Assembly: GCA_951406725.2 (NCBI GenBank) | Contig: OX597838.1 | Coordinates: 29,884,001 to 29,948,000 of the forward strand | Direction of reading: 5' to 3' | Source of the DNA: Octopus vulgaris | Lineage: Eukaryota | Length of the DNA: 64,000 nucleotides | Shown here: in pieces, positions 27,001 to 33,000 of the stretch | Layout: each line of letters begins with the position of its first letter | Numbering within the stretch: the stretch's first letter is position 1 | Made by a program: the position numbers

Positions 27001-30000
27001 TGTGTACCATTTCTCCATTTCTTTTTTCCTATCCTTGTTTTCATATACATTCGCTGCTTTCTTCCAAGATTAGATTTTCCTTGGGGCTGGCCAGATTGGA
27101 GCAATCTCAAGTACATCCAGCTGAAATTGCAAAGATAAGCTGGAACTCAACTGAGGAAAGAAAGCTCCAAATGACCTATCCTTGCTTTTTCTTGTCCCTT
27201 TTTTTGTATCATCTGTCTGGATGTGTTCTTGTCCCATTTATATATATATATATAATCTTTTACTTGGTTCAGTCATTAGACTGTGGCCATGCTGGGGCAC
27301 CATGCCTTGAAGAATTTTTAGTTGAATGAATCAAAATCCCAGTACTAAATCTTTTTCTTTTTCATTTTTTTGTTAAGCGCGATACTTACTTTATCAATTT
27401 CTTTTGTCAAACTGCTAAGTTACGGGAACATAAACACACACACTTACATATTCATACGACGAGCTTCTTTCAGTTTCTCTCTACCAAATCCACACCAGGC
27501 TTTGGTTGGCCTGAGGCTATAGTAGAAGACACTCATCCAAGGTGCCACACAGTAGGACTGAACCCAGAACCATGTGGTTAGGAAGCAAGCTTCTTACCAC
27601 ACAACCACACATAGGCTGTATTGTGTGTGTGTGAATGTGGTATAACTGGGTGTGTCTTGTATTGTGCATATTTATATATGCATATCATAAGGCGTTTGTG
27701 TATGTATACATACATACATATATATATATATATATATACACACACACACACACACATACACATAGTTTCACTTCCTGTTTTTTTTTTCTTTTCTGTTGCT
27801 TTTTCAAAAGAACCCATCCTTTGAATTCCCAATATTTGTTTGTTACCTTAATTTATTGAATGGACATGGACAGGTGGATGACTTCTCACAGGAACCACCC
27901 ATGTCACCATGTTCAGGAAATAGCTGTGGTGTGTGGAAGTGGTTTTGTTTGAAGGGCCTGGCTCCCTTTTGTCCTGAGTATTGGATGTTTAGTCTTCAGG
28001 CCAGCCCTCACCAAACATAAGTAGGATGAATGGCATTCCAGCCATGACCTTCCCATTCTTCCGTCAAGTATTATCGTTTTCTTGGGCTACATTATTGTCT
28101 GTCTGTTGCTCTCTTTTTAATGCAGCGGAGTATAATTTGAAGTAATATTTGCTGCTATTTCCAGCAGTTTGTGTGACTACCTAGGTGTCTCTCCTTTGGT
28201 TTGTGATCCATTTGGTTGTTGTCTGGACATAAACTGAAGTGTTTTTGGTGTTTTAATCACATTTAGTTTGTTCTTGGCTCTGTTGGTGCATACAGCCAGA
28301 TGGGATCTAATTGAAGTGACCTATGACCTGATGTATTCCAATCATGACCATCTCGTATAATGTCTCTAGGATTTACATTATTCAAATGTGTCTCTTTAGT
28401 GGGGGATTTGGCTGCTATTTCTTACATATGTGTGACCATATAGAAGGTTCCTTTTATTGGAAGCCTTCATTGTGATGGATGCAGTTACACAGCAGCCCTG
28501 TTTAAGCCTTTAGAGACCAGCTTCATTTGGATTGACTTGGATTCACTGTTACCCTTTTGACCAGGCTCCCGTTGGCTTTTATGGGTTTTTTTTCCACCAG
28601 GAACCTTTCGAAGCGCCTCCCCCTATTGGGAGTTTTTTGTTATTTTATTTGATTGTTACACTGTTTTTACACGATTTTTTCACAAACGGACACAACCCTT
28701 TGTAACATTTCGTCCTGTTTTGTCCCTTTATGTTTTCTAATCATGTGTCAGCCCTTGTGGCCAATAAAAAGAATTAATTATTATTATTATTATTATTATT
28801 ATTATTATTATTAAGGTAGCGAGCTGGCAGAGTTGTTAGCATGTTGGGTAAAATGCTTAACTGAATTTTGTCTGTCTTTACTTTCTGAGTTCAAATTCTG
28901 CTGAGGTCGGTTTTTGCCTTTCATCATTTCAGGGTGGATAAAATAAGTATCAGTTACACACAGGGGTCGATGTAAATGATTCGTTCCCTCCTATGAAATT
29001 TCAGGCCTTGTGCCTGTTGTAGAAAGGATTATTATTATCATTAAGGTGGCAGGCTAACAAGATCGTTAGCAAACCGGACAAAATGCTTAGCGCTATTTCA
29101 CCCTTCGTTACATTCTGAGTTCAAATTCTGTTGAGGTTGACTTTGCCTTTCATCCTTTCAAGGTTGACAAATTAAGTTCCAGTGGAACACTGGAGTCGAT
29201 GTGATCGACTTGTCACCTCCCCCAAATTTCAGGTCTTGTGCTTTAGTAGAAAGGATCATCATCATCATCATTATCATCATCATCACCACCACCACCATCA
29301 CCACCACCATCATCACCACCACCATCATCACCACCACCATCATCATCACCACCACCATCATCATCATCATCACCATCATCAAGGTGGTGAGCTGGCAGAG
29401 TTGTTAGCACGCTGGGCGAAATGCTTAGCGGTATTTCAAATTCTGCCAGAGTCAGCTTTGCCTTTCATCCTTTTGGGGTCAACTAAATAAGTACCAGTTA
29501 CGCACTGGGGTCGATGTAATCAACTTAATCCCTTCTTCCAAATTCGAGGCCTTGTGCTTCCTGTAGAAAGGATTATTATTATTAGTATTATTATTTATAT
29601 GAGGAAGAAAAGAAGACCGACCTTAGATCAAGCTACTTTGGCTATGTGCACAGTCCTTTCTACTAAAGCACAAGACCTGAAATTTGGGGGAGGTGACAAG
29701 TCGATCACATCGACTCCAGTGTTCCACTGGAACTTAATTAATTCTTTTTATTAATTAATAATTAATTCTTTTTATTGGCCACAAGGGCTGACACATGATT
29801 AGAAAACATAAAGGGACAAAACAGGACGAAATGTTACAAAGGGTTGTGTCCGTTTGTGAAAAAATCGTGTAAAAACAGTGTAACAATCAAATAAAATAAC
29901 AAAAAACTCCCAATAGGGGGAGGCGCTTCGAAAGGTTCCTGGTGGAAAAAAAACCCATAAAAGCCAACGGGAGCCTGGTCAAAAGGGTAACAGTGAATCC

Positions 30001-33000
30001 AAGTCAATCCAAATGAAGCTGGTCTCTAAAGGCTTAAACAGTGCTGCAGTGTAACTGCATCCATCACAATGAAGGCTTCCAATAAAAGGAACCTTCTATA
30101 TGGTCACACATATGTAAGAAATAGCAGCCAAATCCCCCACTAAAGAGACACATTTGAATAATGTAAATCCTAGAGACATTATACGAGATGGTCATGATTG
30201 GATGTAAGTAGCCTCTTTCATTATCATACCAGGAGACCAGCTTGACAAAGTTGGCGTTTAGGCTGATGCCAGCCGCAGCATCAAAGATGCTGCTGTGAGT
30301 GTCACCCAGCAAATCTGTTGAGACCACAGCATCTTCTGTGTAGCCAAGAATTCCTTTCAGTTTCCCCTGTAGGTCTCCTAGTATGATAATGAAACTGGCT
30401 ACTCACACCGCATGGTTTTGATTTGATCGTGCACACGGCCAAAGTAGCTTGATCTGAGGTCGGTTTTCTTTTCTTCCTCATATTACAGTGTTAATTAAAA
30501 TTTATTCAGGAGTGGCTGTGTGGTAAGTAGCTTGCTAACCAACCACATGGTTCCGGGTTCAGTCCCACTGCGTGGCATCTTGGGCAAGTGTCTTCTGCTA
30601 TAGCCCCGGGCCGACCAATGCCTTGTGAGTGGATTTGGTAGACAGAAGCTGAAAGAAGCCTGTCGTATATATGTATATATATATATATATATATATATAT
30701 ATATATATATATATATGTATGTGTGTGTATGTTTGTGTGTCTGTGTTTGTCCCTCTAGCATTGTTTGACAACCGATGCTGGTGTGTTTACGTCCCCGTCA
30801 CTTAGCGGTTCGGCAAAAGAGACCGATAGAATAAGTACTGGGCTTACAAAGAATAAGTCCCGGGGTCGATTTGCTCGACTAAAGGTGGTGCTCCAGCATG
30901 GCCACAGTCAAATGACATAAACAAGTAAAAGAGAGTAAAGAGTATTATTATTCAGATTGAGACAGTGAACCGGCAGAATTGTTACCTGGTTTGCCAAAAT
31001 GCTTAGTGGCATTTCTTCTAGCTTTGTTCTGAGCTCAAATTACTCCAAGGTTGACTTTGCCTGTCATCTTTTCAGGCTCAATAAAATAAGTACTACTGAA
31101 ATATTGGGGAGTGGGGTTGATGTAGTCGACTTTCCCCTCTCTTAGAATTGCTGGCCTTGTGCCAAAATTTGAAAGCTACCATTATAAGAGCAATGGATTG
31201 GCAGAATGGTTAGAGCATTGGGAAAATTTGAATTATGTTCTCTTGATGCTTTGCATTCTGAGTTCAAATCCTGGCTATCTTTGCCTTTTGTCCTTCTGGG
31301 GTTAATAGAATTAGTACCGATCAAGCTCTGGGGTTGAAACTCTCAACTAACCCTCGTTTACCAAATTTTAGGTTTTGCACCTATCTTAGAAAATGTCATT
31401 GTTATTAACTTTTTTGTTGTTATATTTCCATTGGTAAGTAGCTTGCTTCCCAACCACATGGTTCTGGGTTCAGTTCCACTGCATGGCAACTTAAGCAAGT
31501 GACTTCTACCATAGCCTCAGGCTGACCAAAGCCTTGTGAGTGGATTTGGTAGACAGAAACTGAAAGAAGCCTTGTCGTGTGTGTGTATCTGTGTTTGTCC
31601 CCCCGCCATCGCTTGACAATTGATGTTGTGTTTACGTCCCTGTAACTTAGCAGTTCAGCAAAAGAGACTCAGCTTACAAAGAATAAGCCCTAGGGTCGAC
31701 TTGTTCAACTAAAAACGGTGCTCCAGCATGGCTGCAGTCAAAATGACTGAAACAAGTAAAAGAAAAGAATTAAGGCTTATAAGGGATCACTATGCAATGA
31801 CTAAAGAAAATAGTCTAATAATGGAGCATATAAGCCCTCGATAGTAAAAAAGTAGGCTTTCGCATATCACTATTATTATTATTCTTATCATTATTATTAT
31901 AAATTATTTACAGGTTCTTTTCTTTTCACGCTAGCACAGGTGAAGGGTTTAATTATTTGAGCAATTTTTTTTCATGTCTTTTTTTTTTAATCTCCTTTTT
32001 TTTTTTCCTCAGAGTTATGTCATTAAAATTAATGCACCTTTATGAAGCTTTTTAATTGGTTCCAGAAAATGTACAACATACATAAAACCCCTTTTATCCT
32101 TTTCATAATTTATTTCCTATGAAATATACTCTATTTTCTCTTTCTTTTCTTTTTCCTTCCAGAACCAAATTACAACGACCCCGTTTTAGTAAAGACCGAG
32201 AGAAATCGAAATGGTGTACCGATCTTCTTGGGAAGCCTTAAAGAGGACGAACGGGAAGTGAAACTGGATCCACCTCTTAGCGCCACTGATCCAGACAAAG
32301 GCAGAGGTGGCAAAATTTGCGGCTATGGAATCATCGGCCAGCACCTACACGATGTCCCTTTTGAAATCATACTTCTCAACAATGAAACCGGTGAGGCTAA
32401 AATTGTTGTGAAGGCTGGCGAGACATTGAATTGCGAGAAAAGAGAAAAATACAAGTTCACCATTGTTGCTTATGACTGCGGGGAAATACATCATTATTCA
32501 AACAAGTAAGTTATCTCTGTGTTTAAATGTCTGTGTGTCAGAGTTGCTCTTTTACACTTTTACTTGTTTCAGTCATTTGACTGCGGCCATGCTGGATCAC
32601 CGCCTTTTTGTTTTTAGTCTTCAAATGACGCCACCCTGCTGGCCTAAGTGAGCAGGCCAACAGAAGAAAGAGTGAGAGAAAGTTGTGGCGAAAGAGTACA
32701 GCAGGGATTGCTACCACCCCCTGCCGGAGCCTCAAGGAGCATTAGGTGCTTTCGCTCAATAAACACTCACAACGCCCGGTCTGGGAATCGAAACCGCGAT
32801 CCTACGACCGCAAGTCCGCTGCCCTAACCACTGGGCCATTGCGCCTCCACAATTGCTGTTAATAATTTTTAACAGTTGTTGTATTGATTTTTAACAGCCT
32901 ATTGAAAATTATCCAAGTCGAAAGGTCAGCCGTGTAATGATTGAGTAGAAAAGACCTCAAAAAGAAAAATGGTTGTTTATTCAAATGCTTATAGTGTCTT

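What the first reader, a model, noticed from the sequence alone, without database searches (positions are those of the whole stretch)
29597..30507. Fold-back GAPDH 3'-end pseudogene inside the presumed calsyntenin 5' intron
Seen: three GAPDH pieces. On the minus strand, 30369-30208 reads GKLKG...WYDNERGY and 29651-29597 reads VHIAKVA* plus UTR. On the plus strand, 30373-30507 reads [24 protein letters not shown] plus UTR and ATTAAA. The 3' end is therefore present twice, in diverging orientation, with arms differing at about 7-10% of sites (4/55 and 3/30). Established: L1-clade retrotransposition by twin priming produces 5'-inverted retrocopies. Inference: this is an intronless retrocopy with an unusually long duplicated arm, or a fold-back duplication, that was later broken and patched. 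L1/Tx1-type LINE remnants in the window are candidate mobilisers.
Basis: partly seen in the sequence, partly recalled or inferred. Interest (0 to 1): 0.75.

Follow-up and report, generated by a model that had tools for sequence, protein, structure and literature searches.

The report
Inverted GAPDH pseudogene fragment, later patched
A dead, two-armed scrap of the GAPDH gene sits in an intron of an octopus calsyntenin gene, and one arm was recently broken and refilled with a back-to-front copy of DNA lying just upstream, which is an ordinary kind of genomic scar that happens to be unusually easy to read.

Summary
Three GAPDH C-terminal pieces lie at 29597-29651 (-), 30203-30369 (-) and 30372-30506 (+). 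The closest protein is Octopus bimaculoides GAPDH. The duplicated 3' end forms inverted arms that differ at 8 of 91 sites.

Two points were missed. First, the 551 bp that splits the minus arm (29652-30202) is an inverted copy of two upstream segments: 28337-28783 (445/447 identical) and 29170-29255 (86/86). It has an 18-nt re-copy at the internal junction and costs 21 nt of GAPDH. This is a young templated insertion by template switching, or else an assembly error. Second, there is no poly(A). A full-length SINE-like repeat starts 7 nt after ATTAAA, and the whole block sits in an (ATT)n tract.

Each arm holds GAPDH sequence that the other lacks, so neither is a DNA copy of the other. The 112-nt overlap far exceeds the typical twin-priming overlap (median 12 bp in human L1).

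Best reading: two opposed cDNAs of GAPDH mRNA, possibly joined to the repeat by a reverse-transcriptase template jump, then decay, then a recent patch.

No L1/Tx1 remnant was found. The parent gene, an empty site and read support could not be checked. Interest is modest.

The parts
30203..30369 (-). GAPDH minus arm, proximal piece. It covers codons equivalent to Q287-H343 of P0010 (QGKLKG...[10 protein letters not shown]) and is open, with no stop. 30239-30369 (Q287-L330) has no counterpart in the plus arm.
29597..29651 (-). GAPDH minus arm, distal piece: VHIAKVA, a stop, and 31 nt of shared 3'UTR. It ends directly against the (ATT)n tail of the SINE-like copy to its left.
30372..30506 (+). 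GAPDH plus arm: V331 to the stop, with TGG changed to TAG and a +2 frameshift. It is followed by 54 nt of presumed 3'UTR that includes ATTAAA at 30494-30499. The last 23 nt (30484-30506) have no counterpart in the minus arm. There is no poly(A).
30370..30371 (.). 2-nt filler (TA) at the head-to-head junction of the two arms.
29652..30202 (-). Templated patch that replaces 21 nt of the minus arm. 29756-30202 is the reverse complement of 28337-28783 (445/447). 29740-29755 is a 16-nt filler that re-copies the donor end. 29654-29739 is the reverse complement of 29170-29255 (86/86). 29652-29653 is a 2-nt untemplated filler.
28337..28783 (+). Donor A. It consists of unique DNA plus the natural 3' end of a dispersed repeat whose other copies (20030-20261, 21597-21847) end the same way and carry an (ATT)n tail. 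A is therefore the native copy and the patch is the derived one.
29170..29255 (+). Donor B, the 3' part of one particular SINE-like copy (about 29043-29255). Neighbouring copies of that family are only 64-79% alike, so 86/86 identity means this locus itself was copied.
30507..30941 (+). Full-length copy of an abundant SINE-like repeat (25 blastn hits in the window, the query's own match included). Its consensus 5' end, CAGGAGTGGCTG, abuts the GAPDH UTR with no poly(A) between. It differs from the in-window consensus at 19/307 sites.
29384..29596 (+). SINE-like copy with an (ATT)n tail that forms the left flank. TATTATTATT occurs at 29586-29595 and again at 30943-30952, just right of the block. 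This is a candidate but low-complexity target-site duplication.
32162..32521 (+). Context: the first calsyntenin-1 exon detected in the window (residues 34-153 of O. sinensis calsyntenin-1, P0230, 96.7% identical). It is preceded by a pyrimidine tract and AG. Later exons run to 63622.

Best explanation
The element is a decayed, 5'-truncated GAPDH retro-fragment in the first coding intron of calsyntenin-1 of an Octopus close to O. sinensis. It was built in two stages. Stage 1 is old and inferred. Two opposed cDNAs of GAPDH mRNA were laid into an (ATT)n tract between two SINE-like copies. One is antisense, running from 23 nt before the preserved UTR end back to codon Q287. The other is sense, running from codon V331 to 7 nt past ATTAAA. 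The antisense cDNA was probably primed by the AT-rich upstream DNA end on an AUAU microhomology. The sense cDNA has no poly(A) and is fused directly to the first base of a full-length SINE-like repeat. It was therefore most likely made by a reverse-transcriptase template jump from the 5' end of that repeat's RNA onto GAPDH mRNA, giving a chimeric retrocopy. Both arms then decayed neutrally. Stage 2 is recent, and its sequence outcome is shown directly. The minus arm broke between codons about 343 and 351. Repair or replication synthesis switched templates three times. It copied 447 nt from 1.4-1.9 kb upstream in inverted orientation, slipped back and re-copied 18 nt, jumped through a 5-nt microhomology (AATTA) to an 86-nt segment 0.4-0.5 kb upstream, and then returned to GAPDH 21 nt beyond the departure point. 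This left a 447-bp near-perfect inverted repeat with a 972-bp spacer. No function is implied.
For: The arms are inverted and differ at 8/91 sites, whereas the patch differs from its donors at 2/533 (Fisher p=5.4e-6), so these are two events of very different age. Changes polarised against P0010 fall on both arms: W to stop, M to T and a frameshift on plus; T to R, S to L and M to I on minus. Each arm has unique GAPDH sequence, 30239-30369 on minus and 30484-30506 on plus, so neither is a DNA copy of the other. The homology edge at 29597 falls in ATAT next to the (ATT)n tail. The repeat's 5' end at 30507 is shared by 3 other copies, and there is no A-run on either side of it. The repeat's divergence from consensus (19/307) does not differ from the per-arm GAPDH divergence (8/182), p=0.54. 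The donors are native and the patch is derived. The 18-mer occurs once in the donor and twice in the patch. A/A' and B/B' are the only dispersed duplicates of at least 95% identity in the 64 kb. Published context: short templated inverted insertions at breaks, and MMBIR templated insertions (PMC11724301, PMC8421209; search listing and abstracts only); chimeric retrocopies by LINE RT template jumps (PMC2104539; abstract only); the LINE with evidence of activity in octopus is of the RTE clade (PMC9115989; passages).
Against: No poly(A) and no unambiguous TSD are present; the flanking TATTATTATT is low-complexity. The parent gene and mRNA of this species were not available. Intronlessness, the GAPDH origin of 30484-30506, and whether Val at position 351 (shared by both arms; Met in P0010) is parental or a shared post-insertion change are therefore all untested. 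A shared derived change would favour a DNA-level duplication. The SINE-like repeat could have inserted later and removed the poly(A). Junction J1 of the patch has 0 nt of microhomology and J3 has a 2-nt untemplated filler, which fits end-joining as well as MMBIR. No reads were available, so the patch could be an assembly error. An RNA rather than a DNA template for the patch cannot be excluded.
Confidence: 0.5

Rival explanations
1. This is classical L1-type twin priming of a polyadenylated GAPDH mRNA. A later SINE insertion removed the poly(A), and later damage split one arm.
For: An inverted 5' segment sits next to a direct 3' segment, with a 2-nt junction and possible ATAT microhomology at the internal priming site. 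Processed pseudogenes with 5' inversions are known: 3 of 23 in PMC12016303 (passages).
Against: The direct and inverted cDNAs would overlap by 112 nt, which is 82% of the direct arm. In human L1 the median overlap is 12 bp, with quartiles 4-17. There is no poly(A), and only 7 nt separate ATTAAA from the repeat. There were 0 RT/EN Pfam hits among the 209 ORFs scanned. The octopus LINE reported with evidence of activity is RTE-clade, not L1 (PMC9115989, passages).
Confidence: 0.12
2. A single GAPDH retrocopy was later duplicated in inverted orientation at the DNA level, by fold-back priming or a replication template switch of the kind that later made the patch.
For: The locus demonstrably underwent inverted template switching at least once. 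Both arms share Val where P0010 has Met, which could be a shared post-insertion change.
Against: The plus arm carries 23 nt of UTR with ATTAAA that the minus arm lacks, and the minus arm ends flush against a SINE tail. The minus arm carries 131 nt that the plus arm lacks. A fold-back from the minus copy would also have copied its flank, and none is seen right of 30506. The shared site is variable among mollusc GAPDHs.
Confidence: 0.13
3. The 551-bp patch, and with it the split of the minus arm, is an assembly or polishing artefact and not a real allele.
For: The patch is near-identical to its donors (2/533 differences) and is inverted within 2 kb. It is the only such pair in the window. No read evidence was available.
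Against: It is not a simple palindrome of the kind chimeric reads give. There are three junctions, 386 nt between the donors are skipped, an 18-nt stretch is re-copied, and synthesis returns into GAPDH only 21 nt beyond the exit point. Two clustered differences separate copy and donor.
Confidence: 0.2
4. The 55-bp arms are terminal inverted repeats of a multicopy DNA transposon unrelated to GAPDH.
For: None was found. Copy number outside the window could not be checked.
Against: The arms occur only twice in the 64 kb. They continue the GAPDH reading frame through the conserved C-terminus AKVA and the stop of P0010.
Confidence: 0.01

Closest known systems
5'-inverted processed pseudogenes made by twin priming (Ostertag and Kazazian 2001, recalled; statistics from PMC12016303, passages read)
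   Same: Two opposed pieces of one mRNA's 3' region lie head to head. The fragment is 5'-truncated and sits in an intron of an unrelated gene. Microhomology is possible at the internal priming site.
   Different: The overlap is 112 nt instead of about 12 bp. There is no poly(A) and no readable TSD. No L1-type element was detected nearby, and the host's known active LINE is RTE-clade.
Chimeric retrocopies formed by reverse-transcriptase template jumps during LINE reverse transcription (e.g. PMC2104539, abstract only)
   Same: Copies of two different transcripts are fused directly, in the same orientation, with no poly(A) between them. The 3' partner is complete to its first base.
   Different: Here the 5' partner is an mRNA 3' fragment and not a small RNA. 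An additional inverted arm is present. A common TSD could not be shown.
Templated insertions and inverted duplications by template switching (MMBIR/FoSTeS, fold-back priming; PMC8421209, PMC11724301, PMC7954356, listing and abstracts only)
   Same: Nearby donors are copied and pasted in inverted orientation while the donors are retained. Several junctions lie in cis, with microhomology and a re-copied stretch. A small deletion marks the recipient site.
   Different: At 551 bp the tract is far longer than the 5-34 bp inverted insertions described at yeast breaks, and it is far smaller than the kilobase-to-megabase human rearrangements. Only one of the three junctions shows clear microhomology.

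Membership tests
LINE-mediated processed pseudogene (retrocopy) | Sequence derived from a host mRNA, including its 3'UTR | tested here: met
   The proximal minus-arm piece is 93% identical over its 54 residues to Octopus GAPDH. The stop codon is in register, and both arms share 31 nt after the stop. That 30484-30506 is GAPDH UTR is inferred.
LINE-mediated processed pseudogene (retrocopy) | Parental introns absent | not testable with these tools
   No cephalopod genome or GAPDH gene model could be reached. The plus arm is colinear with the protein from V331 to the stop, apart from a 2-nt insertion.
LINE-mediated processed pseudogene (retrocopy) | 3' poly(A) tail | tested here: not met
   ATTAAA is at 30494-30499. 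Seven nt later the SINE-like repeat starts, and there is no A-run. The minus arm ends in an (ATT)n SINE tail.
LINE-mediated processed pseudogene (retrocopy) | Target-site duplication | tested here: inconclusive
   TATTATTATT is present on both sides of the block 29597-30941, but it is part of a microsatellite.
Twin-priming 5'-inverted insertion | Inverted 5' segment joined to a direct 3' segment | tested here: met
   Minus arm 29597-30369 and plus arm 30372-30506.
Twin-priming 5'-inverted insertion | The two cDNAs abut on the RNA with only a small gap or overlap | tested here: not met
   The overlap is 112 nt (36 + 21 + 55). In human L1 the median is 12 bp, quartiles 4-17.
Twin-priming 5'-inverted insertion | L1-type machinery available | tested here: inconclusive
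   There were 0 RT/EN Pfam hits in 77 of the 115 ORFs of 90 aa or more and in 132 of 263 filtered ORFs of 55-89 aa. Mobilisers act in trans and need not be local.
Templated insertion by template switching (MMBIR/FoSTeS/fold-back type) | The insert matches a nearby donor that is retained | tested here: met
   445/447 and 86/86 identity. Both donors sit in their native repeat context.
Templated insertion by template switching (MMBIR/FoSTeS/fold-back type) | Multiple junctions in cis with microhomology or short templated fillers | tested here: inconclusive
   J2 has an 18-nt re-copy and 5-nt AATTA. J1 has 0 nt. J3 has a 2-nt untemplated filler.
Templated insertion by template switching (MMBIR/FoSTeS/fold-back type) | The structure is present in the organism's DNA | not testable with these tools
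   No reads and no second assembly were available.
Chimeric retrocopy by RT template jump | Direct same-strand fusion of two transcripts without an intervening poly(A), the 3' partner being complete at its 5' end | tested here: met
   The junction is at 30506/30507. The repeat's 5' end is identical in position to 3 other copies.
Chimeric retrocopy by RT template jump | One TSD flanks the whole chimera, and both parts are equally old | tested here: inconclusive
   The candidate TSD is low-complexity. Divergences of 19/307 and 8/182 do not differ, p=0.54.
TIR DNA transposon | The arms are termini of a multicopy element | tested here: not met
   There are only two copies in the window, and they encode the GAPDH C-terminus. 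Genome-wide copy number was not testable.

The most novel reading that the evidence does not exclude
The locus may record reverse-transcriptase template jumping by a non-L1 (SINE/RTE-type) retroposition complex in a cephalopod. The complex would have captured two opposed pieces of an abundant mRNA at the 5' end of a SINE insertion. That would be a route to gene-fragment retrocopies in a genome whose LINEs are not expected to mobilise mRNAs. In addition, the recent patch created a 447-bp near-perfect hairpin, and the older 55- and 36-bp GAPDH stems are retained, all inside the sense strand of the calsyntenin-1 pre-mRNA. In an animal with very heavy A-to-I editing (recalled, not checked here), that hairpin could be an ADAR or small-RNA substrate.
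Probability: 0.1. Interest if true: 0.55.

Novelty: new member of a known kind. Interest (0 to 1): 0.3.

Why it matters
On its own this is a dead gene fragment in an intron. Its value is as a clean, sequence-resolved example of two copy-choice events at one site. The first is an old RNA-level event: opposed cDNAs with no poly(A), fused to a SINE-like repeat. The second is a young DNA-level event: a three-junction inverted templated insertion. If the first is confirmed across octopus species, it would show how mRNA fragments get retroposed in genomes dominated by SINEs and RTE-type LINEs. If the second is confirmed by reads, it would be a marker of template-switch repair in a cephalopod germline and a likely polymorphic structural variant in calsyntenin-1 intron 1.

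Tried and rejected
1. Cluster members of the Octopus GAPDH cluster, wanted for other Octopus C-termini, could not be obtained. A region search gave only P0010 and Argonauta among cephalopods.
It was replaced by stop-free ORFs. The 131 short ORFs beyond 32 kb were not scanned.
3. Rfam on 27.5-32.2 kb gave only sub-threshold microsatellite-like miRNA matches. ARAGORN found no tRNA.
4. The idea that the minus-arm interruption is a parental intron was rejected. It is 99.6% identical to nearby DNA in inverted orientation and has no GT-AG ends.
5. The idea that the patch is a transposon insertion was rejected. There is no TSD, 21 nt are lost, and the donors are local.
6. The idea that the 386 nt skipped between donors A and B were removed by splicing was rejected, because the ends are not GT-AG.
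7. Relative age of the left-flank SINE-like copy could not be settled. Only 5 copies were available and the consensus is biased towards the query.
8. A search of the held papers for octopus together with processed pseudogene, retrocopy or retrogene listed no octopus-specific study among the 10 shown of 503. This is weak evidence of absence.
9. RNA folding of 29597-30483 gives z=-12. That follows trivially from the inverted repeats and is not evidence of function.
The parent gene, orthologous empty sites, genome-wide copy number and read support are therefore open. 

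
Full report
**Setting.** The window has no N. It carries calsyntenin-1 on the plus strand. tblastn with the named Octopus sinensis calsyntenin-1 (P0230) gives 15 matches from 32162 to 63622, 6 of them 100% identical and most others 95-99%. Residues 1-33 (exon 1) are not found in the window. The exon at 32162 is preceded by a pyrimidine tract and AG. The finding at 29.6-30.5 kb therefore lies in what is most simply the first coding intron, in an Octopus close to O. 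sinensis.

**The observation.**
- Minus strand 30369-30208 encodes 54 residues. They match Pfam Gp_dh_C (E=1.3e-13) and solved GAPDHs (best E=4.5e-24), and are 93% identical to Octopus bimaculoides GAPDH, P0010.
- Minus strand 29651-29597 reads VHIAKVA, a stop, and UTR.
- The plus strand from 30373 reads [14 protein letters not shown]. After two extra bases, 30420-30452 reads DLIVHTAKVA*.
- The arms pair as 30372-30407 with 30203-30238 (4/36 mismatches) and 30429-30483 with 29597-29651 (4/55).
- A 27-nt arm motif occurs twice in the window and in none of 100 shuffles.
- No other GAPDH sequence exists in the 64 kb.

The 551 bp between the two minus-strand pieces is not anonymous filler.
- 29756-30202 is the reverse complement of 28337-28783, with 445 of 447 bases identical.
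- 29654-29739 is the reverse complement of 29170-29255, with 86 of 86 identical.
- These are the only dispersed duplicates of at least 95% identity in the whole window. The other matches at that level are tandem arrays.

The direction of copying is clear. Donor A ends exactly at the natural 3' end of a dispersed repeat whose two other copies end the same way and carry an (ATT)n tail. Donor B lies inside a complete SINE-like copy whose neighbours are only 64-79% alike.

Read along the minus strand, the sequence runs as follows:
- GAPDH up to ...GGCTACTTACA;
- donor A, with no microhomology at the junction;
- a 16-nt filler. Together with the first 5 nt of B, it repeats the 18-mer that ends donor A. 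That 18-mer occurs once in the donor and twice in the patch;
- donor B, entered through AATTA;
- two untemplated bases;
- GAPDH again, 21 nt beyond the exit point.

This is the signature of serial template switching during repair or replication. Such events are described at other scales in PMC11724301, PMC8421209 and PMC7954356, of which I saw only the listing and abstracts. An RNA template (the intron transcript) with reverse transcriptase would give the same sequence and cannot be excluded. Nor can an assembly error, although the three-junction, non-palindromic layout and the in-register return argue against one.

**Two ages.** The arms differ at 8 of 91 sites, and the patch differs from its donors at 2 of 533 (Fisher p=5.4e-6). 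Polarising the arm differences with P0010 puts derived changes on both arms: a stop, M to T and the frameshift on plus; T to R, S to L and M to I on minus. Both arms have therefore decayed independently.

**Origin of the two arms.** Each arm holds GAPDH sequence that the other lacks. Codons Q287-L330 (30239-30369) occur only on minus. The last 23 nt with ATTAAA (30484-30506) occur only on plus. The minus arm stops flush against the (ATT)n tail of the left-hand SINE-like copy, at an ATAT that could have served as priming microhomology. A DNA fold-back of either arm would therefore need extra deletions, so two separate cDNAs of the mRNA is the simpler reading.

It is nevertheless not classical twin priming, for three reasons.
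- The two cDNAs overlap by 112 nt, whereas in 287 human L1 inversions the overlap had a median of 12 bp and quartiles of 4-17 (PMC12016303, passages read).
- There is no poly(A). Seven nt after ATTAAA a full-length copy of an abundant SINE-like repeat begins at its consensus first base, which is shared with three other copies. No A-run lies on either side of that repeat.
- The whole block 29597-30941 sits in an (ATT)n tract, with TATTATTATT on both sides. That is suggestive as a target-site duplication, but it is low-complexity.

The repeat's divergence from the in-window consensus (19/307) is not different from the per-arm GAPDH divergence (8/182; p=0.54). I therefore favour a chimeric retroposition. 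Reverse transcription would have been primed on the repeat's RNA and then jumped to GAPDH mRNA, as described for chimeric retrocopies (PMC2104539, abstract only). A second, opposed cDNA would have been primed from the other DNA end. This step is inference.

**Mobilisers.** I found no reverse-transcriptase or endonuclease domain in the ORFs I scanned.
- 77 of the 115 ORFs of 90 aa or more were scanned. The 38 left out lie mostly in microsatellite tracts or overlap scanned ORFs, and three of them are in the focal region.
- 132 of 263 filtered ORFs of 55-89 aa were scanned, all before 31.7 kb.

The octopus LINE reported with evidence of activity belongs to the RTE clade (PMC9115989, passages).

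- the parent gene's introns and 3' end;
- whether Val at residue 351, shared by both arms where P0010 has Met, is parental. The site varies among molluscs;
- orthologous empty sites;
- genome-wide copy number;
- read support.

One search of the held papers listed no octopus-specific retrocopy study among the 10 shown of 503.

**Verdict.** The element is a decayed GAPDH retro-fragment with two opposed arms, atypical for twin priming. It was later interrupted by a young, inverted, templated insertion copied from just upstream. It is a new member of known kinds, and its interest is modest.

Noticed in passing
28491 and 28497 versus 30048 and 30042: The only two differences between donor A and its copy lie 6 nt apart. 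They are symmetric about a GCAGC centre, and they raise the self-complementarity of the surrounding 15-mer from 10/15 in the donor to 12/15 in the copy. This may be a quasi-palindrome (templated) mutation cluster, or it may be chance.
   Followed up: partly
28813-29596 and 30950-31165: Four same-strand copies of one SINE-like family lie nearly head to tail, each starting in the (ATT)n or (CAT)n tail of the one before. This suggests that the family inserts preferentially into its own microsatellite tails.
   Followed up: partly
8800-12400: About 3.5 kb of almost pure (TA)n microsatellite, with GC of 0.09 in the 10001-12000 bin.
   Followed up: no
45969-46193 and 47815-47970: Two stretches match overlapping parts of calsyntenin-1: residues 486-559 at 65% identity and residues 529-580 at 100%. 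This may be a duplicated or alternative exon.
   Followed up: no
62150-62772: A tandem array with a 16-nt register shift, 95-97% identical between copies. It starts inside or next to the calsyntenin exon at 61927-62178, which is only 76% identical to the O. sinensis protein.
   Followed up: no
20030-20261 (+) and 21597-21847 (-): Two further copies of the repeat that supplies the end of donor A lie in opposite orientation 1.3 kb apart, at about 80% identity to A. This is an older inverted pair of the same family.
   Followed up: no
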